Shown piece by piece: positions 33,334-41,602 of a stretch of DNA of 52,166 nucleotides. Position 1 is the stretch's first letter; every line of letters starts with the position of its first letter. The position numbers were made by a program, and so were the translations under genes. The DNA comes from a virus (Duplodnaviria; Caudoviricetes). The notes beneath the pieces were generated by a model, which had not been told where the DNA came from, ran no database searches, and worked only from the letters and a program-made list of their open reading frames with translations. The stretch is taken from positions 1-52,166 of IMG/VR virus record IMGVR_UViG_3300018019_000014, one strand, 5' to 3'.

Positions 33334-33531
33334 TTAGGACTTCGGAAGGCCGGAGTCCGGCACATAGCTCGAATAATCGTTGGCCAGCACGGCGGCGTGT
33401 AGGGCTTCCCAGTCCGCAGGCGTCGGGTTGGCCTTCGTGAAGATGCTGGTAAGCGCGGCCTGCACGGAGGGCTCGACTTTGATGGCTTCTTCCACCAGCG
33501 AAATGATCAGGGAGAGAGTGGCGGGATTCAT
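33334..33531 (-). CDS. Hypothetical protein
   Basis: 65-aa ORF following the lipoprotein. Confidence 0.6.
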   Translation of the reverse strand: MNPATLSLIISLVEEAIKVEPSVQAALTSIFTKANPTPADWEALHAAVLANDYSSYVPDSGLPKS

Positions 33532-33535
33532 GGCG

Positions 33536-33961
33536 TTATTGGAGTTTGACCCCGAAGGACGCAATCAGCGCCGTCAGGTCGGTTATCGTTTGGTTGGCAT
33601 TGACTACGGCCTGAGCAAAGGCATTGGCCGGCCCGGTGATACTGTTGTTCGTCACTGAGGATGCGGACCACACAGCGCCAGCGTCACAGGCAACGACCAT
33701 CGCGGCCTGAAACTTCTGGTAAGCGGCCTTGACCGCTTGCTCTTGGGCAACGGGGACGGGCGTACCCGCCACCTTCTGGGCGGTGACGTAGGCACCCCAA
33801 AGGTGCATGGCGGTGTCCACCGTCACTTGGGTTGTGGCGGCAGTTTTGTAGGCCGCGCTTTGAGGCGTATTGCAGCCGGTAAGGACCGACAAACCGAATC
33901 CCGCCAAGAGCGGGAGGAGGGTGAATGAGAGAATGACCAAAAGGAGTTTGAACTTTTTCAT
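33536..33961 (-). CDS. Lipoprotein (spanin-like candidate)
   Basis: MKKFK plus hydrophobic stretch plus lipobox LTGC, helical body. Confidence 0.7.
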   Translation of the reverse strand: MKKFKLLLVILSFTLLPLLAGFGLSVLTGCNTPQSAAYKTAATTQVTVDTAMHLWGAYVTAQKVAGTPVPVAQEQAVKAAYQKFQAAMVVACDAGAVWSASSVTNNSITGPANAFAQAVVNANQTITDLTALIASFGVKLQ

Positions 33962-33971
33962 AGCGTTGTTT

Positions 33972-34008
33972 GTTTCAATCCGCGCCCCAGTCCAAACCGG
34001 GGCGAAAG
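33972..34008 (-). CRISPR. Solitary type I-C-like CRISPR repeat, copy 1
   Basis: CTTTCGCCCCGGTTTGGACTGGGGCGCGGATTGAAAC: hairpin plus GGATTGAAAC 3' end; no array, no cas operon. Confidence 0.65.
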
Positions 34009-34043
34009 TGTTGTTTGACGGACAGTTTTCGGACTTTGGTTGA

Positions 34044-34352
34044 TCACTTTTGGACTGGAGTGTTTGGCGGCAGACTCGGCGTGTTTGGCCAGGTGGCAAG
34101 CGTAGGGCCGGACTGCTGCATCGGCGCAGCAGCAGGCGGTGGCGCTGAAACCAACGGCGGCGCTTGCGTTGCCGAATGGCTCCCCGCGAAGATGCTCAGA
34201 AGCCCAGAGAACCAGGAAGCCCCGATGTGGTTGGCGTAGAGGATTCGGCCCACGGCCATCAAACAAAGCATCACGATGGGCGCCCACCTTTGCCAGGCGG
34301 GCGGCAGGGCATTGATGATGTCTTGGGCTGCTGGAGGGATCGAATTTGTCAT
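34044..34352 (-). CDS. Holin-like membrane protein
   Basis: One or two hydrophobic helices, Pro-rich tail, next to the lipoprotein. Confidence 0.5.
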   Translation of the reverse strand: MTNSIPPAAQDIINALPPAWQRWAPIVMLCLMAVGRILYANHIGASWFSGLLSIFAGSHSATQAPPLVSAPPPAAAPMQQSGPTLATWPNTPSLPPNTPVQK

Positions 34353-34385
34353 AGTGGCCGACTTTAGCCCCTGGCCGGGCCGGCG

Positions 34386-34688
34386 TCAACGCTTTTCCGG
34401 GCATTTCGGGTGGCAGGGCAAGCCGTCGAGCTTCTTTGCAAGATCCGAATGTCTCTCAATTTCCCGCGCTTCCAGCAATGACAAGTGCTCTTTCACCGCC
34501 GCATCGCGGTCCGCAATATGCTGGAACTCCTTTCCGAGCCAATACGCCCAACCGGCGACCAGAAGGCCGGCCGCAACAGCGCCGCCCAGGGTTATGTGGG
34601 TGCTTTCGCTGATAGCATCGCCCACCAGCGCGAGGGCGCTTGTGCCAGCGCCGACCAGCGAAGCTCGGATTGAATTCAAGATCATCAA
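34386..34688 (-). CDS. Membrane protein (holin-like)
   Basis: TM segment ITLGGAVAAGLLVAGWAYWLG followed by coiled coil and LPC. Confidence 0.55.
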   Translation of the reverse strand: MMILNSIRASLVGAGTSALALVGDAISESTHITLGGAVAAGLLVAGWAYWLGKEFQHIADRDAAVKEHLSLLEAREIERHSDLAKKLDGLPCHPKCPEKR

Positions 34689-35050
34689 TTTGTCCGGGTT
34701 AAAGTTGGGTTAGTCGGCATCGAGGGCATAGCCGGCGTGCTGATGATGTTGCTCGGGACGCTCTCCCAAAAGCTGTTCGAGGCGGTCATAAAGAAAAACA
34801 TCTGGCCGGGCTGGATCTGGATCGTCAGATTGGTCGTGATCCAAGAGACCGCGCCGTTCGTTGTCCAGCCGGGCACGTTGGTCAGGCAGGTCCAGTTCGT
34901 TATCGGCGCGGCCAGGTTGGTCGAGCCGTAAAGATTGAAGCTCTGGACAGTGGGGTCGGTGTACGACCAGCTCAAAGTGACGCGGCCCGATGGCGGCGCG
35001 TAGGTGAACGCGCTGCCCAGGAGACAGGCGAGAATCAGGAGTCGTTTCAT
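34685..35050 (-). CDS. Secreted fibronectin type III-like protein
   Basis: MKRLLILACLLGSA signal; VTLSW...FNLYGSTNL...FFFMTASN...ES.PSN. Confidence 0.7.
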   Translation of the reverse strand: MKRLLILACLLGSAFTYAPPSGRVTLSWSYTDPTVQSFNLYGSTNLAAPITNWTCLTNVPGWTTNGAVSWITTNLTIQIQPGQMFFFMTASNSFWESVPSNIISTPAMPSMPTNPTLTRTN

Positions 35051-35057
35051 GGCGCGG

Positions 35058-36323
35058 CTAATAAGGGTAAACTGGAATGGCCCAGGCCCATCGGGTGTTT
35101 CCAGGCAACGCGACATTAGGATAGATGCTGAGTGCCCACGTAGAACCATTGGTAAGTTGAAATTGATAACCAACGGGAAAGGTCCAATTCGTCGCCACGC
35201 CAGTTACAAAGGTATAGACAGTCGTATTGACCTCAACTCCGTTTGTCCAGATTCCAATCGTGACATTGGTGCCAGCGTTGCCCATGCCCCTGACCCCATT
35301 CGTACAAATGACTCCGATCCAGACATTTGAAACCCAGCCACCATTTAGGGGAGTAACAAAATATGTCTCGGCAAAGATTTCAGCACTGGCAACCGCTCCA
35401 ATAGCCATGCCACTGTCGGGAGGCAGAAAATAGGTTGTGGAGGCCGTGCTCACCGCAGTGTTGACCACCGAGCCTCGAACCGTAAATGGCACAGATCCAG
35501 ACACACTATTCGTAAGAGTAACGAGTGTGAGATTCGACTGGACCAATGTACCCCAGTAATTCGTAGAGTTGACGGCATTCGTTGCGCTCCCAACGGCTCC
35601 TTGTACTTGGCTTCCTTGAATCGTAACAGCGCTCAACGGTTGCGTGAAATTCGCGTGTGCGTCGTAAGCCGTGCCCGTTACTGGGTCAGCGCCGTTGATG
35701 AAATGTAGCACGACTGCGCCCGTGCCAATCGAGTCCAATTTGACCGAGACAACAATTTTGGTCGCGTTGGAAGCGATAAAGGTCAAGGGTGATGACATGC
35801 TGAAATCAAGCGTGTTCACTGAACCGGCAACCACCGTTTGAGGACTCGACGAGGCGAGTTGGATTAGTAAGTGCGCCACGGTATCCCAGACATAAACTTC
35901 GTAATGAATTGAGGCGGTCCCTCCGCCGCCCGTCCGGTACACATAACTGCGGCAGGACATCGGCCCCGAAGGAATCACAGAAACCGTTTGCGTGCTTACC
36001 ACCTGACGCACGTAAGCCCCAACCACGGTTACTGGATAGGATTGCGTTGTGATCGTGGAGGGAACGGCAGTCCAACCCTGATAGTTATTAGTGCGAGTGA
36101 AGTTCGGGTCATTATTAGTTGTCGAGCTAAAAAACATGAACTGCGGCACGCCAGCCAAGGCGTTGTTCACGTAATTGGTCGAAGCAACTCCAAAACCATC
36201 ATTAGCCAAAAGGTTAGTTTCTCCTGAGCCGTCGCCGAAGAAGTCTCCTACCCAATGGATCTGCGCTTGAGCGGACAGGCAGAAAGTAAAAAGGATCGCT
36301 GCGAACCAACGCAAGGTTTTCAT
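35058..36323 (-). CDS. Signal-peptide-bearing, fibre-like beta-rich protein
   Basis: MKTLRWFAAILFTFCLSAQA-Q signal; FFGDGSGETNL resembles the fibre FxGDGSGLTNL motif; Thr-Asn rich. Confidence 0.65.
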   Translation of the reverse strand: MKTLRWFAAILFTFCLSAQAQIHWVGDFFGDGSGETNLLANDGFGVASTNYVNNALAGVPQFMFFSSTTNNDPNFTRTNNYQGWTAVPSTITTQSYPVTVVGAYVRQVVSTQTVSVIPSGPMSCRSYVYRTGGGGTASIHYEVYVWDTVAHLLIQLASSSPQTVVAGSVNTLDFSMSSPLTFIASNATKIVVSVKLDSIGTGAVVLHFINGADPVTGTAYDAHANFTQPLSAVTIQGSQVQGAVGSATNAVNSTNYWGTLVQSNLTLVTLTNSVSGSVPFTVRGSVVNTAVSTASTTYFLPPDSGMAIGAVASAEIFAETYFVTPLNGGWVSNVWIGVICTNGVRGMGNAGTNVTIGIWTNGVEVNTTVYTFVTGVATNWTFPVGYQFQLTNGSTWALSIYPNVALPGNTRWAWAIPVYPY

Positions 36324-36325
36324 GG

Positions 36326-36697
36326 TCAATGCCAAGCCCCATTGTAGTAGTACCACGGGCGCTGTCCATCGATATCGAAAGCCGCGCCGGTCCCCGAGGC
36401 AGGCGTGAAGTTGGGTGCGTTGCTGCCGTAGTGGCCGAAAGTGATGCCGCCGGCAACGACAAGGCCCCCGCCGCCAGCAACCAGAATTTGATACGCGAGC
36501 GAGATCAAAACAGGCAACTGCATCGCGGGCGGGATGCAGTTGAGACACGCCGCGTTTTTCACCAAGGTTGAAGCGTTTGCACTCATACCGGCAATTTGGG
36601 AAAAGATGTAGATAAGGACGGGCAACTGCATGTTCTTTGGGATGCAGTCAAGGCAGCCCGCCTGGGCTACCAGCGTCGAGGCAGTTGAACTGGCCAT
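36326..36697 (-). CDS. Cys-repeat structural protein
   Basis: Tandem ~36-aa repeat ASTLV..A.CL.CIP..MQLPVLI. Confidence 0.7.
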   Translation of the reverse strand: MASSTASTLVAQAGCLDCIPKNMQLPVLIYIFSQIAGMSANASTLVKNAACLNCIPPAMQLPVLISLAYQILVAGGGGLVVAGGITFGHYGSNAPNFTPASGTGAAFDIDGQRPWYYYNGAWH

Positions 36698-36738
36698 AGC
36701 GTTGAGAAGGGCGACGTGCTGGGCCGGCGCCCTGGCGG

Positions 36739-37128
36739 TTAATCAATCTGGTTTACCAAGTCGGTTGCCCGGCACAAAAGCCAAAGCGTCATCGCCTTGA
36801 TCTCTTTGAGGTCCACGCCGCACGCGCACTTGATGTCGCTGCGCAGCGCGGTGGCTGTTGGCACGCTCGAAAACGCGCCCGACGCAACCGCAAGGTTTCC
36901 CGCCACGCGCACAAACATCGATGTCAACACTGAGTTCGGCTCGCAGGTGAAGCAGGCAACAGCTTGGCGCAGTTGGGCGAAAGTCACGGTGTTTCTCGGG
37001 TTCCCGGCGTTGTACGCCTGGCGCAGCAGATATTCGATGGCCTGCCACTTCTCGCGCTCCGAAAGACAGTTGAAACACGCGCTCTCGTTGGAGAGCGAGG
37101 TAATATCACAAAGGGTGGCTACAGACAT
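36739..37128 (-). CDS. Cys-repeat structural protein
   Basis: ACFNC, ACFTC and KCAC repeats; similar to its neighbour. Confidence 0.7.
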   Translation of the reverse strand: MSVATLCDITSLSNESACFNCLSEREKWQAIEYLLRQAYNAGNPRNTVTFAQLRQAVACFTCEPNSVLTSMFVRVAGNLAVASGAFSSVPTATALRSDIKCACGVDLKEIKAMTLWLLCRATDLVNQID

Positions 37129-37131
37129 AGG

Positions 37132-37461
37132 TTATTCTCCGGTGCCCATCCCCGCCAACTCATCGTCGGACGGGATTGGGGGTCTTGTGGAGCCGCCCGC
37201 GCCAGGCTCGCGTTCTTTCTCGGGTTCGGTTGTGCTGGCGACTTCGATCTCGTCGCCGTAGTCTTTGACCACGCGGAGCGTGATGTGGTCCCCCTCTCGG
37301 AGGACCTGCCCACCCAAGAGGCGCTTGGGAATCAGGGTCGTCTCGGGATTCTGCTCTTGTTCGTCCACCGTCTTGGCGCCATCACCGCGGTCGGGCGAGT
37401 GGTAAAAGGCATCATCATCTGCCGCCGGAGGCGGCCGGCTTGTCTCGGTCGTGTAGGCCAT
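37132..37461 (-). CDS. Acidic hypothetical protein
   Basis: EGDHITLRVVKDYGDEIEV core; follows the capsid gene. Confidence 0.65.
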   Translation of the reverse strand: MAYTTETSRPPPAADDDAFYHSPDRGDGAKTVDEQEQNPETTLIPKRLLGGQVLREGDHITLRVVKDYGDEIEVASTTEPEKEREPGAGGSTRPPIPSDDELAGMGTGE

Positions 37462-37476
37462 AAAAGTTCGGGTTTT

Positions 37477-37515
37477 CGCCGGGGCCGGCCAGACTCGAAC
37501 CAACCGACCCCGGCG
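37477..37515 (-). terminator. Strong hairpin downstream of the capsid gene
   Basis: CGCCGGGGTCGGTTGG-TTCGAGT-CTGGCCGGCCCCGGCG; no clear U-tract, so possibly a stabilising or processing stem. Confidence 0.5.
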
Positions 37516-37541
37516 CTATGCATTCCTCAACTCCACCAAGG

Positions 37542-39107
37542 TTAAGTGACACTCCACGGCAACGCTACCGTCGTGCAGGACGACGTAACGAGCGTGATGT
37601 TGTTCCCTGAGACAGCCCAGGTGCCCAACGCCCCAACCAGTGAGTTCAGTTGAGCCACCAGGTTGGCCAGGGTACTGGTGCCTGTGATTGGCAGATGCAC
37701 GATTGGGATTTCGTTGCACTGGATCGAGTCCCGCAGAATCTCGTACGTCCCCGTCAGTGAATCCAGGATCGGCGTGAAGGTCAGCGTGACGGGCGCAGTC
37801 GCGCACGGCACGTTCGCGCTGCTGTAATTCTGGGCGTCCGGGTACGGCGCCGAAGCACAGACCGGCAGGTCCACGATGCAGGCCGGCTCGCGCAAGGTCA
37901 GGAACATCTCGGCGAACTCGGGATACTCGCTTTTGGTGCTCAGCGAAAAGTCGCTGATGAACTTGCCCTTGTTCCGCCGGCTGTTGTCCACCGCAATCGG
38001 AATGACAACCCCGTTCACGTCGGTTGCCGTCCCGCAGGTGATGTTGTCCATGACGAACTGCCACTTGCCCGCGAAGTCCCGCGCGGCGAAGGGCATCTCG
38101 GGATTGATGCTGGTCGCGTCCCGCACCAGGCTCATCATGGCCATGCGATGCCAGATGAAGTTCACCTGGATCTGCGCGTTCTCGAAGTCGTTGTTCAGCG
38201 CCTCCTTGATACCCTCGGTGGCCGCGACGTTGGAGTACGGGAACACGAGGTTCAACTGCCAAGTCCCGTCCGCGTTTTGGATGTTGGGATTCAGGAACCG
38301 CAACGGCATCGAGTCGGCTCGGATGCCGTAGTTCCCGCAGCGCCCAGTCCAGCCGTACTTGTGGTACTTTTCGGCTTGGTCGAAGTCCTCAAACCGCCAG
38401 TGATCCGTCAACTCCCCCGAGCCTTCAATCAGGTCCCAGAGGCTTTCCATGTCATTGACGAACTCGAGCATCGGCGCCCCGCCGTGGTTGATGTCCTCGC
38501 CCAGGGCTCCCAGGAGGATCTGCGGATGCACCCGCCGTTGCAGGTGCCGCGCCGTCATCTTGCTGGTCGGCAACATGGACACGTTCAGAATTGTCCCCGT
38601 GGTGTCCCAATACGCCGTGATCGCCTGCAGCCCATTTGCGGCCGTCGCCCACTTCTGGCCCGCGATGCGGACGCCCTCATGCCGAAATCGGTCGCTGGTG
38701 ACGATGCTCGAACAGCGCCGCAGCGTCCGCACGACGTGCGCAAACTGCTGCTTCGCCCGGTCGGCACTCAAAATGAGATCCCAACAGAACAGGTCCGTCT
38801 CGAACGCCTTGCGCTGGAGCCGGTAGCTGTCCCGGGTGAACCCCATCCCGATCTTCTTGCTCGCCGGATCGCACGGCTGCCCAATGCACGGCGCAGCCTG
38901 CACATCTTCCCACGGCCCCGTTAGGTCGGGAAAGACGTTCTCGAATCGGTCGAAGGTGTGTTCAACACCGGCCTGGGCCGGGAAGGAACCTGTGGATACG
39001 TGCCCCACCCAGGTATCCATTGGGTGCAAGCTCCGGATAATTTCGTCATCCAGATGCTCACTTCGGCGGCTTAAAAAGTCTCCGAAGGCAGTGCATGGGA
39101 TCGCCAT
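37542..39107 (-). CDS. Major capsid protein with C-terminal extension
   Basis: 521 aa; follows scaffold/GroES; own promoter and downstream hairpin; strongly GC3-biased codons. Confidence 0.75.
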   Translation of the reverse strand: MAIPCTAFGDFLSRRSEHLDDEIIRSLHPMDTWVGHVSTGSFPAQAGVEHTFDRFENVFPDLTGPWEDVQAAPCIGQPCDPASKKIGMGFTRDSYRLQRKAFETDLFCWDLILSADRAKQQFAHVVRTLRRCSSIVTSDRFRHEGVRIAGQKWATAANGLQAITAYWDTTGTILNVSMLPTSKMTARHLQRRVHPQILLGALGEDINHGGAPMLEFVNDMESLWDLIEGSGELTDHWRFEDFDQAEKYHKYGWTGRCGNYGIRADSMPLRFLNPNIQNADGTWQLNLVFPYSNVAATEGIKEALNNDFENAQIQVNFIWHRMAMMSLVRDATSINPEMPFAARDFAGKWQFVMDNITCGTATDVNGVVIPIAVDNSRRNKGKFISDFSLSTKSEYPEFAEMFLTLREPACIVDLPVCASAPYPDAQNYSSANVPCATAPVTLTFTPILDSLTGTYEILRDSIQCNEIPIVHLPITGTSTLANLVAQLNSLVGALGTWAVSGNNITLVTSSCTTVALPWSVT

Positions 39108-39367
39108 ATATTCTAAAATCTTACTGAATTGTACTTCAAAGAGCTAATGTCCGCACCGATTGCGCGACAAGCACGTTGAGGGGATTTTAGAAGCCGCTCT
39201 TCTCTTCAGGGCTCTCCATGAACCCTTTTGCGGGGATCGTTTAAGCCCAATCCGGGGCCTTTGGATGCCGGCTGGCACATCCGATTTAACAGCCAGTGCT
39301 CGACGGTGAGGCGAGCATTACCGACGCCGTTGTCCGTTCTATACGTCTGACTGTCCGTTCTTGTCAA
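39108..39367 (-). promoter_or_regulatory. Capsid promoter and ~220-nt structured leader
   Basis: TTGACA-18-TATAGA, AGAACGGACA direct repeat x2, multiple hairpins. Confidence 0.6.
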
Positions 39368-39708
39368 CAGATATTTTCGTGGACCGCTTCTCGCCGGAGT
39401 TGTTTTCCGTGGTAGTTCAAGTGGTGTCTTTTGCAAAACCAGCGGACTGCAAGGGGTCTGGAATAGTCATCGTGGTGCGGCTGCGTATCGGGCGAGCCGC
39501 AGATTTCGCAGGGGCCGCGCTTAATTTTGCCGCGCTTCAAATAAACGTGGACATACGCCCGCGCGTTCATTTTGAGGCGTTCCTGGGGTGTTAGCGGATG
39601 GAGGGCGCGGCATATTTGCTGGCTTTTAGCGTGGCAGTCCCAACAGTCTCCTTGGCCAGGGCGTTTGGGATTACCGCATTGGCAAGGCGTGTTTGCTCTT
39701 CGTTTCAC
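39364..39708 (-). CDS. HNH endonuclease-like protein
   Basis: ARAYV...KRGKI.RGPCEICG....PHHDDYSRPL.VRWFCKRHH; GTG start with GGAG. Confidence 0.8.
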   Translation of the reverse strand: MKRRANTPCQCGNPKRPGQGDCWDCHAKSQQICRALHPLTPQERLKMNARAYVHVYLKRGKIKRGPCEICGSPDTQPHHDDYSRPLAVRWFCKRHHLNYHGKQLRREAVHENIC

Positions 39709-39844
39709 GGCTCCGATGTTAATGTGGAAAACCACGTGGAACAACGGCAAAGAAAAGCGCCGGGTTCCACGCCCGGCGCCTGGTAAGCACAAGGGCCATC
39801 TATTGAGTCGCCAGAGTAGCGCAGGGGAAGGGGCCGGTCAAGAG

Positions 39845-39879
39845 GAAAAGAAAGGCGCCGGAGAACAACCACCGGCGCC
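39845..39879 (-). terminator. Intrinsic terminator
   Basis: GGCGCCGG-10 nt-CCGGCGCC followed by TTTCTTTT. Confidence 0.7.
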
Positions 39880-39911
39880 CCACCAGTTGACTCGAATCAA
39901 GAGGACACTAC

Positions 39912-39941
39912 GTTTCAATCCGCGCCCCGTCAAGGGGCGAT
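39912..39941 (-). CRISPR. Solitary type I-C-like CRISPR repeat, copy 2, followed by a 32-nt spacer-like segment
   Basis: ATCGCCCCTTGACGGGGCGCGGATTGAAAC; last 17 nt identical to copy 1. Confidence 0.7.
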
Positions 39942-40250
39942 ATTTGACAATACCGCAAGGAGCAGGCGTTCGTCAATGATCTTGAAGTATTTTTCCTCGC
40001 CGTTGGCCCAGGGGTCGAGCCAGCGCCCCGCCCGGGGGCTGATGAGCACCAGCGCCCCGGGATCGCACGGGTGGGCGATCAGCGTCCCGTTTCTGGCTTG
40101 GCGCCAGATACCAAATCTCACAACGCGGCCACGTTGGGAAACTTCCTGAGCGGCATCAGGGATGGTGATTCCGCCGGGGGAGAGGGCCTCCGGTAAGTCC
40201 ATCGCCAGGAGAACGTAGCCCTGACGGGGCCGGATGCGGTTGCCGCTCAT
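39930..40250 (-). CDS. groES: Co-chaperonin GroES
   Basis: IRP...YVL...SPGGITIPDAAQE....GRVV..G...II.E..LLAVL. Confidence 0.85.
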   Translation of the reverse strand: MSGNRIRPRQGYVLLAMDLPEALSPGGITIPDAAQEVSQRGRVVRFGIWRQARNGTLIAHPCDPGALVLISPRAGRWLDPWANGEEKYFKIIDERLLLAVLSNIAP

Positions 40251-41602
40251 GCGGGATGTGCTCTATCAATGGCGTCGAGTTCCGCTGCCGCTTCGCCCAT
40301 ATAGTCTTTGCCGGACGCCGGCACACGGCTGCGCGGGCGTCCGCCGTCAGGACCGCTTTCCTCGTATTCTTTAAGGCTGGTTTCCAACTCTTCGATGCGG
40401 CTCTGAGCGGCGTGCAACTGGTGCGCGAGGCGGTCATGATTCGCCGCCTTGTTGCGGATGATGCTGTGCATCCGCACAAGCTGCTCCTGGGTGAACGTCT
40501 TGCCGGCGCGAATCGTCTCGGCGAACGACTTGGGGAGCAGGTCCAGAGATTCCTTGGTCAAGTCCTGGGGCGAAAACACCAGGTCAGCCAGCGCGCGTCC
40601 GCGGTCGAACAGGGTATTACCCTCCGCGTCATTCTCTGCGGGCGCGAACCAAGCGGGGTACTTCGCCGCCAATCCCTCATTGGTCTGCTTCCAAAGCGAT
40701 GCGCGGTTGGCCTGGGCCTGTCGCTGGCCCTCCGTGGCATTCTTGGCGGCGCCATCAGCCTGCTGGCGTGCCTGTTGCAACGCAGCTTGGCTGGCATCGT
40801 ACAGGCGCGAGATTTCGTTGATGTGGCGCTTCACTTCTTCCTTATCCTCCGGGAAGAGGCGATTGATTTCGGTCCGGCGCGAGGCCGGGTCGAGGCTGGC
40901 AAAGTACTGCAAGTCGGTTTCGGTGACTTCGCGCACGGTTTCTTTGCCGTCCGCGTCGGCGACCTTCATTGTGAGACCCTTCAACTCCCGCGCGGCATCG
41001 GCCCAGGCTTTGACGTAGGGCTGCCAAAACTTCGTCTGGTATTCCTGGCTCTTGGAGAAATCCACAAAGCGAATATGCTGCTCAAGTTGCGCGTTGCGTT
41101 GCTCAGCGGTCGTCAAGCGGTCCTGGACCTCCTTGGGGACCGCGCCGCCCTTCTCAAGCTCTTGGACGCGCGAGCGCAGGCGGGTTACTTCGGGCTCAAG
41201 CTCGGTTTTGACGCGGGCTTTGATGGCCTCGTAGGCTTCGCGCAGTTCCTTGGCCTTGACGGGCTTGGCAGGCTCTCCTGCAGGCGGTTTGCCATCCCCG
41301 GGGGCCGGCTCTCCGGGCTCGCCCGGTTCACCTGGTTCGCCCGGCGATTTGTCGTCGGGGACCTTGTCGCCCGGACGCTTGGCGGGCTTGTCCTCCGGCG
41401 CGCCGGACTTGCCTTCGGAGGCGCTGAGGGCATCCAAGTCGGCATTGGCATCGGCCATCCAGTCCTGGGAGGCGATGGTTGTTTTGACCGGAGCGGGGGC
41501 GGCGGCAGGTTTCGGGGCCGACGCGGGCGGCGCAGCGGCGCTCTTGGGCGACGGCGCGGCCGCGGCGGGCGGCGGGGCTGAGGCGGGGGGTGCGGTTGGC
41601 AT
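40247..41602 (-). CDS. Putative scaffolding protein
   Basis: Disordered Pro/Ala N-terminus plus long coiled coils, between portal and capsid. Confidence 0.65.
   Translation of the reverse strand: MPTAPPASAPPPAAAAPSPKSAAAPPASAPKPAAAPAPVKTTIASQDWMADANADLDALSASEGKSGAPEDKPAKRPGDKVPDDKSPGEPGEPGEPGEPAPGDGKPPAGEPAKPVKAKELREAYEAIKARVKTELEPEVTRLRSRVQELEKGGAVPKEVQDRLTTAEQRNAQLEQHIRFVDFSKSQEYQTKFWQPYVKAWADAARELKGLTMKVADADGKETVREVTETDLQYFASLDPASRRTEINRLFPEDKEEVKRHINEISRLYDASQAALQQARQQADGAAKNATEGQRQAQANRASLWKQTNEGLAAKYPAWFAPAENDAEGNTLFDRGRALADLVFSPQDLTKESLDLLPKSFAETIRAGKTFTQEQLVRMHSIIRNKAANHDRLAHQLHAAQSRIEELETSLKEYEESGPDGGRPRSRVPASGKDYMGEAAAELDAIDRAHPA

What the first reader, a model, noticed from the sequence alone, without database searches (positions are those of the whole stretch)
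39845..39950. crRNA-like unit: type I-C repeat, 32-nt spacer and terminator hairpin fused to the groES stop
Seen: ATCGCCCC-TTGAC-GGGGCG-CGGATTGAAAC overlaps the groES stop, followed by GTAGTGTCCTCTTGATTCGAGTCAACTGGTGG and a GC hairpin with U-tract. Known: Cas5c cleavage would leave an 11-nt 5' handle, a spacer and a 3' hairpin, i.e. mature crRNA architecture; phages carry mini-arrays and Racrs. Inference: a guide that hijacks host Cascade against a competitor or a host promoter, or a decoy (the spacer has an internal TTGA..TCAA hairpin). I saw no self-target by eye and no cas operon.
Basis: partly seen in the sequence, partly recalled or inferred. Interest (0 to 1): 0.82.

Follow-up and report, generated by a model that had tools for sequence, protein, structure and literature searches.

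The report
Phage copy of CRISPR repeat
A peat-soil phage carries a lone look-alike of a bacterial type I-C CRISPR repeat at the very end of its GroES-like gene, most likely an RNA decoy against host CRISPR immunity, which is a known kind of trick rather than a new one.

Summary
On the minus strand, 39912-39941 is a 30-nt hairpin plus 11-nt handle. Its last 17 nt are identical to repeats of genuine type I-C arrays found beside cas8c. The unit overlaps the last three codons and the TGA stop of a Cpn10/GroES-like gene. A 32-nt stretch and an intrinsic terminator follow.

A second unit of a different I-C repeat subfamily lies at 33972-34005; the scan had noted it separately. Lone I-C repeats have also been noted by this scan on other DNA.

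The layout (one repeat, about 30 nt, 3' hairpin) matches published I-C crRNA-like RNAs. It also matches cas-regulating units I found in Verrucomicrobiota cas loci.

The "spacer" is probably the gene's old 3' UTR. The closest relative has stop, 31 nt and terminator, with no repeat. I found no target in the phage itself, phage genomes, IMG/VR, JGI metagenomes, 120 array loci or 110 cas8c-upstream stretches. No RNA data exist, and the host is unknown (probably Verrucomicrobiota or Planctomycetota).

Best reading (0.55): a Racr-like competitor RNA for Cas5c and Cascade. A targeting guide is not excluded (about 0.17 across both guide readings). This is a new member of a known kind, of moderate interest.

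The parts
39930..40250 (-). Cpn10/GroES-like gene (106 aa). Its last four codons (NIAP) and TGA stop are supplied by the repeat-like unit and the bases just before it.
   Evidence: ORF list. Pfam PF00166 33.2 bits, cut-off 21.1. PHROG 3188 co-chaperonin GroES. The relative L247 ends ...LLAILT*, without these 4 residues.
39912..39941 (-). Solitary type I-C repeat-like unit 1. It has a 6-bp stem CGCCCC/GGGGCG, loop TTGAC and an 11-nt handle CGGATTGAAAC. The predicted Cas5c cut lies between 39923 and 39922.
   Evidence: The cut position is inferred from the I-C processing described in bioRxiv 10.1101/2024.12.27.630466, section 4.
39880..39911 (-). 32-nt spacer-like stretch. It is probably the old 3' UTR; positions 2-4 read TAG, where the relative L247 has its stop codon.
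   Evidence: No target found.
39844..39879 (-). Intrinsic terminator of the scaffold/GroES operon: a GGCGCCGG...CCGGCGCC hairpin plus a T-rich tail.
   Evidence: Fold. Relatives have a terminator at the same place.
39947..39976 (-). Weak sigma-70-like promoter match (TTGACG-18-TATTGT) that ends 5 nt before the unit. A possible own promoter, not established.
   Evidence: 9 of 12 positions; 5 sites found in the region against 2.3 expected.
33972..34005 (-). Solitary type I-C repeat-like unit 2. It has a 9-bp extended stem (CGCCCCGGT/ACTGGGGCG), loop TTGG and the same 11-nt handle. It ends 10 nt before the ATG of a lipoprotein gene.
   Evidence: The stem type matches the 37-nt repeat subfamily.
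33536..33961 (-). Lipoprotein-like gene directly after unit 2 (signal peptide ending LTGC).
34044..34352 (-). Small membrane protein gene, weakly holin-like, upstream of unit 2.
   Evidence: PHROG 1356 holin, E 8.6e-4; weak.
39364..39792 (-). HNH-endonuclease-like gene inserted between the terminator and the capsid gene. It is absent from L247 and L048. A second terminator lies at 39755-39781.

Best explanation
This is a phage-borne solitary repeat unit (SRU) that mimics the type I-C CRISPR repeat of its host. The host is unidentified, probably a Verrucomicrobiota or Planctomycetota bacterium.

Proposed mechanism:
1. The unit sits in the 3' end of the scaffold/GroES-like operon and is transcribed with it. 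A weak promoter just upstream may add to this.
2. In a host with a type I-C system, Cas5c would recognise the hairpin plus the ATTGAAAC tail and cut at the hairpin base.
3. The released 3' fragment (11-nt handle, about 32 nt, terminator hairpin) has the layout of a loadable I-C crRNA-like RNA. Cas5c, Cas7 and Cas8c would assemble on it.
4. Because this RNA guides nothing that harms the phage, it competes with the host's own crRNAs for Cas proteins and so weakens immunity. That is a Racr-type RNA anti-CRISPR.

The 32 nt is the old 3' UTR rather than a captured spacer. A second unit at 33972-34005 mimics the other I-C repeat subfamily and would widen the range of systems covered.

What is shown and what is inferred:
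- Shown: the sequence, the fold, the likeness to real arrays, the synteny, and the absence of targets in what I searched.
- Inferred: transcription, Cas5c cutting, Cascade loading, and the effect on immunity.
For: 1. Likeness to genuine repeats.
70 of these hold three or more copies with array spacing.
- Both repeat subfamilies lie beside cas8c.
- Unit 1 is 93.5% identical over 31 nt to the L174 array repeat, and shares 21 exact nt with the L125 repeat.

2. Such lone units recur in viruses.
- The 17-mer hits 45 IMG/VR stretches.
- Of 35 distinct non-array units, 24 are solitary with a hairpin, 8 have another handle nearby, and 3 have no stem.

3. Selection on hairpin and handle.
- The relative L048 (capsid 68% identical) has a unit at the same place after its GroES-like gene.
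- Its stem differs in a paired way (CACCCCG/CGGGGTG) and its 11-nt handle is identical. Then follow 36 nt and a terminator.

4. The 32 nt as old UTR.
- L247 (capsid N-terminus 91% identical; GroES-like 59%) has stop, 31 nt, terminator and promoter, with no unit.
- In L048 the corresponding stretch is a 27-nt duplicate of its own terminator.

5. Precedent in papers.
- RacrIC1 lies 11 nt after a protein gene on the same transcript and inhibits type I-C. A non-targeting crRNA also lowers interference (PMC10651486, sections 7 and 10, passages read).
- Single-repeat I-C units give 48-50-nt RNAs with an 11-nt handle and a 3' end in a 3' hairpin loop (bioRxiv 10.1101/2024.12.27.630466, section 4).

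6. Plausible hosts carry I-C.
- Cas8c is present in 81 of 401 sampled Verrucomicrobiota genomes and 35 of 381 sampled Planctomycetota genomes.

7. Stability in nature.
- Both units are identical in the contigs of four peat/wetland runs that cover them.
Against: - There is no RNA evidence at all. No listed sequencing run that holds the phage is on record as RNA (this says nothing about expression either way).
- The host is unknown. No array spacer among 1330 from the fetched loci matches the phage or its relatives at full length. No capsid relative was found in 401 Verrucomicrobiota genomes.
- The unit lies in what looks like a late structural operon. That is a poor time to express an inhibitor in a strictly lytic infection. 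The timing is itself an inference from gene content.
- No known acr gene is seen beside either unit. I did not test this against an Acr library.
- The closest relative L247 lacks the unit, and so do 11 of the 12 capsid relatives (one search set) whose region after the GroES-like gene I read. It is therefore dispensable and recent or often lost.
- Against my stand-in repeat set, the best full-length match scores 38.2 bits, below the 41.1-bit SRUFinder cut-off. The Rfam scores are below the gathering threshold.
Confidence: 0.55

Rival explanations
1. Cracr-type regulatory guide. The handle plus 32 nt would load into host Cascade and, through a partial PAM-proximal match, repress a host promoter. 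The target could be the cas operon, a CRISPR-guarding toxin, or a CRISPR-supervised defence.
For: - The architecture is exactly that of the described viral Cracr and of host CreR-type units: one repeat-like unit, a spacer-like stretch and a terminator (bioRxiv 10.1101/2024.10.29.618823, section 5 passages and section 7; 10.1101/2024.12.27.630466, section 4).
- I found four such host units in Verrucomicrobiota I-C loci. Each has a TTC-flanked self-target of 13-18 nt in the same cas-upstream stretch; in L266 it abuts the cas3 start and in L259 it lies between cas3 and cas5 (L259, L266, L313, L337).
- So this circuit exists in the likely host phylum.
Against: - In 80 cas8c-upstream stretches (630,149 nt) of Verrucomicrobiota, the best TTC-flanked run is 8.
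- In 30 stretches (216,783 nt) of Planctomycetota, no run reaches 7.
- No spacer or spacer-like stretch among 1523 resembles it.
- No phage or genome carries the handle joined to the same first 9 nt in a repeat context.
- The stretch aligns in position with the plain 3' UTR of L247.
- The host genome may simply not be in the sample.
Confidence: 0.12
2. One-guide weapon against other phages. The 32 nt would target competitors, or siblings that lack the insert, through host Cascade. This would resemble viral mini-arrays, or the 'homing' reading proposed elsewhere in this scan.
For: [quoted passage not shown]
- Earlier notes of this scan describe lone I-C repeats joined exactly at a PAM in sibling phages (e1-5701035, e1-5496882; unchecked notes on other DNA).
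- The 32 nt is native phage sequence, as that model needs.
Against: - No protospacer in 50,697 phage records; the best hits have E = 3.
- None in IMG/VR by two patterns.
- None in JGI metagenomes by the pattern with a TTC PAM.
- At the inferred junction, the bases before the homologous stretch are GTC in the window parse and GAC in L247, not TTC (my parse).
- L247's UTR is too unlike the 32 nt to be a target.
Confidence: 0.05
3. DNA-level relic or recombination site. The units would be leftovers of exchange with host CRISPR arrays, or would serve as short homology for integration into arrays, with no RNA function.
For: - Integration into CRISPR arrays is one published suggestion for SRUs (PMC10651486, Main and Discussion, read).
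- The phage has no recognised integrase according to a first-reader note (e1-6337853; not checked by me).
- The units are patchily distributed among relatives.
Against: - The hairpin and the full 11-nt handle are intact in both units and in L048, despite complete divergence of the flanks.
- Both units face the same way as the genes.
- 17-21 nt of identity is short for homologous recombination (general knowledge, recalled).
Confidence: 0.13
4. The phage's own use of Cas5c/Cascade. The units would make late mRNAs substrates of host Cas5c, for example to trim the GroES message or to tune translation of the lipoprotein gene, whose start lies 10 nt after unit 2. Gene expression would then depend on whether the host has active I-C proteins.
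For: - In my scan of the non-array units from the 45 viral loci (38 rows), 10 have an ORF of 60 aa or more starting within 30 nt downstream; one more, L006, has a truncated ORF at 15 nt.
- Unit 2 is of this kind.
Against: - Intergenic spaces in phages are short, so nearness to a start codon is expected for any intergenic element.
- No precedent that I read.
- Unit 1 is followed by a terminator, not a gene.
Confidence: 0.08

Closest known systems
RacrIC1 and viral solitary repeat units (Camara-Wilpert et al. 2023, PMC10651486)
   Same: A lone mimic of a type I-C repeat on a phage, placed right after a protein gene on the same transcript, with no cas genes nearby. The expected action is competition for Cas proteins.
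   Different: - Here the upstream gene is a GroES-like gene of a structural operon, not an acr gene.
- The unit overlaps the stop codon, so an ORF-masking search such as SRUFinder could miss it.
- A proper 5' handle plus about 32 nt plus a hairpin follows, so a complete Cascade could form rather than the aberrant subcomplex shown for RacrIF1.
- Activity is untested.
- I could not see their supplementary lists, so I cannot say whether either unit is already catalogued.
Host type I-C single-repeat crRNA-like RNAs (Neisseria Nezha-regulating SRU; bioRxiv 10.1101/2024.12.27.630466) and the CreR-like units found here in Verrucomicrobiota (L259, L266, L313, L337)
   Same: One repeat-like hairpin, an 11-nt handle ending ATTGAAAC, about 24-38 nt, then a 3' hairpin or terminator.
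   Different: Those are encoded in cas loci and have a TTC-flanked partial target at a nearby promoter. The phage unit has no detectable target and sits in a 3' UTR.
Viral Cracr RNAs (bioRxiv 10.1101/2024.10.29.618823)
   Same: Virus-encoded units made of a repeat-like sequence, a spacer-like sequence and a terminator. The authors list type I-C among the predicted kinds.
   Different: Cracrs are defined by at least 9 PAM-proximal matches to a host CreA/CreR spacer or its target. That was not found here.
Virus-borne CRISPR mini-arrays (as described in PMC11656645)
   Same: Host-type repeats borrowed by a virus.
   Different: Mini-arrays have two or more repeats and spacers that match related viruses. 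Here there is one repeat and no match.

Membership tests
Viral solitary repeat unit / Racr candidate (SRUFinder rules, PMC10651486 section 30) | At least 90% identity and at least 90% coverage to a known CRISPR repeat | tested here: met
   93.5% identity over 31 of 31 nt of the L174 array repeat. This was tested against 70 array consensus repeats that I extracted, not against the authors' 17,823-repeat library.
Viral solitary repeat unit / Racr candidate (SRUFinder rules, PMC10651486 section 30) | BLAST bit score of at least 41.1 | tested here: inconclusive
   The best full-length match scores 38.2 bits. A 21-nt exact partial match scores 42.1 bits but covers only 57% of that repeat. The authors' library might hold a closer repeat.
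Viral solitary repeat unit / Racr candidate (SRUFinder rules, PMC10651486 section 30) | Truly solitary: no full or partial repeat (over 70% identity) within 100 bp | tested here: met
   The best local likeness in the flanks is 19 of 28 columns (68%), inside the GroES-like coding sequence, and 14 downstream. The next handle-like word is 5.9 kb away.
Viral solitary repeat unit / Racr candidate (SRUFinder rules, PMC10651486 section 30) | Intergenic position | tested here: not met
   12 of the 30 nt overlap the GroES-like ORF. Unit 2 at 33972-34005 is fully intergenic.
Viral solitary repeat unit / Racr candidate (SRUFinder rules, PMC10651486 section 30) | Inhibits the cognate CRISPR-Cas system | not testable with these tools
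   Needs an interference assay.
Viral solitary repeat unit / Racr candidate (SRUFinder rules, PMC10651486 section 30) | Host carries the same CRISPR subtype | tested here: inconclusive
   The host is unknown. The repeat family is type I-C beside cas8c. Of the 37-nt arrays with a record title, 11 of 16 are Verrucomicrobiota.
Cracr / regulatory crRNA-like RNA | Repeat-like unit, spacer-like stretch and terminator | tested here: met
Cracr / regulatory crRNA-like RNA | At least 9 PAM-proximal matches to a host CreA/CreR spacer or to a promoter in a cas locus | tested here: not met
   The best TTC-flanked run is 8 in 80 Verrucomicrobiota stretches, and none reaches 7 in 30 Planctomycetota stretches. 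No similar spacer among 1523. The true host may not be in the sample.
Genuine type I-C CRISPR array repeat | Hairpin followed by an 11-nt tail ending ATTGAAAC | tested here: met
Genuine type I-C CRISPR array repeat | Regularly spaced copies with spacers, next to cas genes | tested here: not met
   There is one copy here. No Cas5d match in the genome.
Genuine type I-C CRISPR array repeat | Rfam CRISPR-DR9 gathering score (45 bits) | tested here: not met
   27.1 bits; unit 2 scores 25.6 bits.
Viral mini-array against related viruses | Spacer matches another virus | tested here: not met

The most novel reading that the evidence does not exclude
The unit could be a working single-guide RNA gene of a phage of PVC-group bacteria (Planctomycetes-Verrucomicrobia-Chlamydiae). 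It would have been built by dropping one host repeat onto the stop codon of a highly expressed late gene, so that the gene's own 3' UTR and terminator become guide and 3' hairpin. The guide would steer host I-C Cascade to a promoter of the still unidentified host, as the CreR-like units I found in Verrucomicrobiota cas loci do. The second unit would cover hosts with the other repeat subfamily.
Probability: 0.12. Interest if true: 0.65.

Novelty: new member of a known kind. Interest (0 to 1): 0.4.

Why it matters
- **New setting for a known trick.** If active, this would extend RNA anti-CRISPRs to phages of peat-soil PVC-group bacteria (Planctomycetes-Verrucomicrobia-Chlamydiae).
- **Blind spot in searches.** It shows that such mimics can hide inside the end of a protein gene, where searches that mask ORFs do not look.
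- **Two mimics in one phage.** One phage can carry mimics of two repeat subfamilies of the same CRISPR type.
- **How such RNAs can arise.** A loadable crRNA-like RNA can come from a single repeat insertion in front of an existing terminator. That would be a cheap evolutionary route to decoys and, after a few mutations, to regulatory guides.
- **Limits.** None of this changes the known picture of SRUs, Racrs and Cracrs. It adds a case and a testable construct.

Tried and rejected
**Targets for the 32 nt**
- Own genome with a TTC PAM: best run 4.
- BLAST against phage records: only chance hits, E = 3.
- IMG/VR patterns with and without PAM: 0.
- JGI metagenome pattern with PAM: 0.
- All fetched loci.
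- Five and then three array-bearing genomes with PAM plus 11 nt at 1 mismatch: chance level, with controls similar.
- 110 cas8c-upstream stretches.
- Handle plus first 9 nt in IMG/VR and in 401 Verrucomicrobiota genomes: 7 and 6 hits. None is in a solitary-repeat context. One is an ordinary array spacer.

**Host identity**
- No full-length spacer match among 1330 spacers.
- No capsid relative in 401 Verrucomicrobiota genomes.

**Expression**
- No RNA holder is listed among 24 runs.
- Contigs of 4 DNA runs show both units unchanged. That says nothing about RNA.

**Siblings lacking unit 2**
- No match in IMG/VR for the lipoprotein start region.

**Other points**
- Other near matches to GGATTGAAAC in the window (6 with one mismatch) have no hairpin and are chance.
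- I considered a covariance model built from the arrays and dropped it. The arrays were found with the unit's own 17-mer, so the test would be circular.
- The motif GTCAAA before both units (first-reader note e1-6337855) is not seen before other viral units, and I treat it as chance.
- Supplementary tables of the Racr and Cracr papers were not available. I cannot say whether these units are already listed there.
Full report
**What the window is**

The window is a complete 52,166-bp virus record with direct terminal repeats and 59.7% G+C. Nearly identical DNA is held by about 20 peat, wetland and soil DNA runs from 2014 to 2025.

The genes around the finding all read on the minus strand:
- a 451-aa scaffold-like protein (40247-41602);
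- a 106-aa Cpn10/GroES-family protein (39930-40250; Pfam 33.2 bits against a cut-off of 21.1);
- the flagged element;
- an HNH-endonuclease-like gene (39364-39792);
- the 521-aa major capsid gene (37542-39107).

**The observation**

It has a 6-bp hairpin CGCCCC-TTGAC-GGGGCG followed by CGGATTGAAAC (39941-39912). The TGA stop of the GroES-like gene lies in the loop. Then come 32 nt (39911-39880), a 26-nt G+C-rich hairpin (39879-39854) and a T-rich tail.

The fold tool predicts both hairpins (-43.1 kcal/mol, z = -2.35). The 30-mer is unique in the window, with none in 100 shuffles at up to 3 mismatches. Rfam's CRISPR-DR9 is the best family, but its score is below the gathering score (27.1 against 45 bits).

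**A second copy**

The 17-mer GGGGCGCGGATTGAAAC occurs a second time, also on the minus strand, at 33972-33988. There the stem is longer (CGCCCCGGT-TTGG-ACTGGGGCG; Rfam 25.6 bits). The unit ends 10 nt before the ATG of a lipoprotein-like gene and lies about 40 nt after a small membrane-protein gene. The scan had already noted this copy separately (e1-6337855). The six other near matches to the 10-nt handle have no hairpin.

**Are these like genuine repeats?**

Yes. 70 of these hold three or more copies at array spacing. They fall into two subfamilies:
- repeats of 31-33 nt with a period of 64-68;
- repeats of 37 nt with an extended stem and a period of 71-72.

Both subfamilies lie a few kb from a Cas8c gene on the same strand, so both are type I-C.

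Unit 1 is 93.5% identical over the whole 31-nt repeat of one array (L174). It also shares 21 exact nt with a 37-nt repeat (L125). Unit 2 has the CGCCCCGGT-type extended stem. Among loci whose titles I saw, that stem occurs only in Verrucomicrobiota (5 of 5). Of the 16 titled 37-nt arrays, 11 are Verrucomicrobiota. The phage therefore carries one mimic of each subfamily.

**Lone copies in other viruses**

In IMG/VR the 17-mer hits 45 stretches. One contig holds a true array. Among the other 35 distinct units, 24 are solitary with a hairpin, 8 have another handle within about 110 nt (mini-arrays or tandem handles), and 3 have no stem.

Two contexts recur in my scan of these units:
- an ORF start within 30 nt downstream, as for unit 2;
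- a hairpin or terminator about 30-45 nt downstream, as for unit 1 (L003, L013, L014, and L034 by eye).

**Relatives of this phage**

75 loci encode a capsid relative. Eleven have a detectable GroES-like gene before the capsid gene, and none of these has a repeat-like unit after it. Where the region is simple, it holds a terminator followed by a TTGAC-type promoter.

L048 (capsid 68% identical) does have a unit at the same place. Its stem is CACCCCG/CGGGGTG, a paired change relative to the window. Its 11-nt handle is identical. Then come 36 nt and a terminator. Its 36 nt are largely a 27-nt duplicate of the terminator's own 5' half (24 of 27 positions, read).

The closest relative I could find is L247, from a metagenome. 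It shares 91% identity over the first 102 capsid residues and 59% in the GroES-like protein. It has no unit and no HNH gene. Its GroES-like gene ends ...LLAILT-TAG, followed by 31 nt, a terminator and a TTGACA promoter.

The window's protein ends ...LLAVLSNIAP, with the four extra residues encoded by the unit and the bases before it. If 34 nt (AAAT plus the 30-nt unit) are taken out, the window reads GTA TTG TCG TAG, parallel to L247's ATA TTG ACG TAG. This is my inference. On that reading the "spacer" begins with the displaced old stop codon and is simply the resident 3' UTR. Its 32-nt length is inherited (31 nt in L247) rather than set by spacer acquisition.

**Does the 32 nt have a target?**

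I found none. What I searched:
- the phage itself;
- 50,697 phage records by BLAST, where only chance hits at E = 3 appeared;
- IMG/VR, using patterns that ignore every sixth base, with and without a TTC PAM;
- JGI metagenome contigs, with the PAM;
- all fetched loci.

To test the regulatory-guide idea I located Cas8c in 81 of 401 sampled Verrucomicrobiota and 35 of 381 sampled Planctomycetota genomes. I fetched 80 and 30 stretches of up to 8.5 kb covering cas5, cas3 and upstream DNA. The best TTC-flanked PAM-proximal run was 8 in the first set, and no run reached 7 in the second. No other phage or genome joins an I-C handle to the same first 9 nt in a repeat context. All of this is limited by not knowing the host.

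**A useful positive control**

The same stretches show that the circuit exists in this phylum. Four Verrucomicrobiota loci (L259, L266, L313, L337) carry one degenerate repeat-like hairpin with the handle. In the two that I folded (L259, L266), 24-27 nt and a terminator follow. Each has a TTC-flanked partial match of 13-18 nt in the same stretch; in L266 it abuts the cas3 start and in L259 it lies between cas3 and cas5.

This is the CreR-type layout. It agrees with a preprint showing that a single-repeat type I-C unit gives 48-50-nt RNAs cut just 3' of the hairpin. Those RNAs keep an 11-nt handle, end in the loop of a 3' hairpin, and act at a TTC-flanked promoter site (bioRxiv 10.1101/2024.12.27.630466, section 4, read). 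The phage element therefore has a layout that type I-C proteins can process and load.

**Interpretation**

The element belongs with viral solitary repeat units. These are known to act as RNA anti-CRISPRs, including one type I-C case (RacrIC1) placed 11 nt after a protein gene on the same transcript (PMC10651486; abstract, sections 7, 9, 10 passages, 12 and 30 read).

I think the most likely action is competition. Cas5c cuts at the hairpin base, and the handle-bearing fragment takes up Cas5c, Cas7 and Cas8c without guiding them to anything that harms the phage. The Racr paper reports that even a non-targeting crRNA lowers interference.

Points against this reading:
- the apparent late-operon position;
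- no acr neighbour identified;
- absence from the closest relative;
- no RNA data (one search lists no RNA holder, which says nothing either way).

The regulatory-guide (Cracr) reading keeps the same architecture but lacks its defining match. The anti-sibling reading lacks both a target and a TTC at the inferred junction. A DNA-level role in recombination with arrays cannot be excluded.

**Novelty**

This is a new member of a known kind. Three features are less usual:
- the overlap with a stop codon, which ORF-masking searches would miss;
- the apparent birth of a crRNA-like RNA from one repeat dropped in front of an existing terminator;
- two subfamily mimics in one phage.

This scan has noted lone repeats of this kind on other DNA before.

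**Papers**

- PMC10651486: sections and passages as listed above.
- bioRxiv 10.1101/2024.10.29.618823: abstract, section 7 and passages.
- bioRxiv 10.1101/2024.12.27.630466: section 4 and passages.
- PMC10120712 and PMC11656645: passages only.
- No supplements were seen.

Noticed in passing
window 33972-34005 (-): A second solitary I-C repeat-like unit with a 9-bp stem of the 37-nt repeat subfamily. It ends 10 nt before a lipoprotein gene's ATG. It was already noted by the scan as a separate finding.
   Followed up: partly
L259, L266, L313, L337 (Verrucomicrobiota cas8c-upstream stretches): Host CreR-like units: one degenerate I-C repeat carrying the handle (followed by 24-27 nt and a terminator where I folded it, L259 and L266). 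Each has a TTC-flanked partial self-match of 13-18 nt in the same stretch, abutting the cas3 start in L266 and between cas3 and cas5 in L259.
   Followed up: partly
L006, L015, L021, L041 (viral) and L327 (host stretch): The same solitary unit followed after 15 nt by a small acidic ORF (77 aa in L327, cut short in L006). It looks like a racr-plus-small-gene pair and may be worth testing as an anti-CRISPR locus.
   Followed up: no
L011, L018, L025: A solitary unit whose handle is followed by GATTGAAAC repeated in tandem, and then an ATG.
   Followed up: no
L052, about 0.8 kb after the capsid gene, opposite strand: A relative of this phage has an I-C-like unit (8-bp stem plus TGGATTGAAAC) that reads against the capsid gene.
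   Followed up: no
window 39755-39879 (-): Two terminators with the same GGCGCCGG stem, 70 nt apart, with a TTGACC-17-TACTCT promoter-like site between them. They lie ahead of an HNH gene that the relatives L247 and L048 lack. This suggests the HNH cassette brought or duplicated a terminator.
   Followed up: no
L028 and L035 (one IMG/VR contig of 74.6 kb): A contig filed as viral holds a type I-C array of at least 126 repeats with the same 17-mer.
   Followed up: no
whole window: The phage is near-identical in about 20 peat, wetland and soil DNA runs dated 2014-2025. Four of these runs were laid on 33500-40700 and showed no change in either unit.
   Followed up: partly
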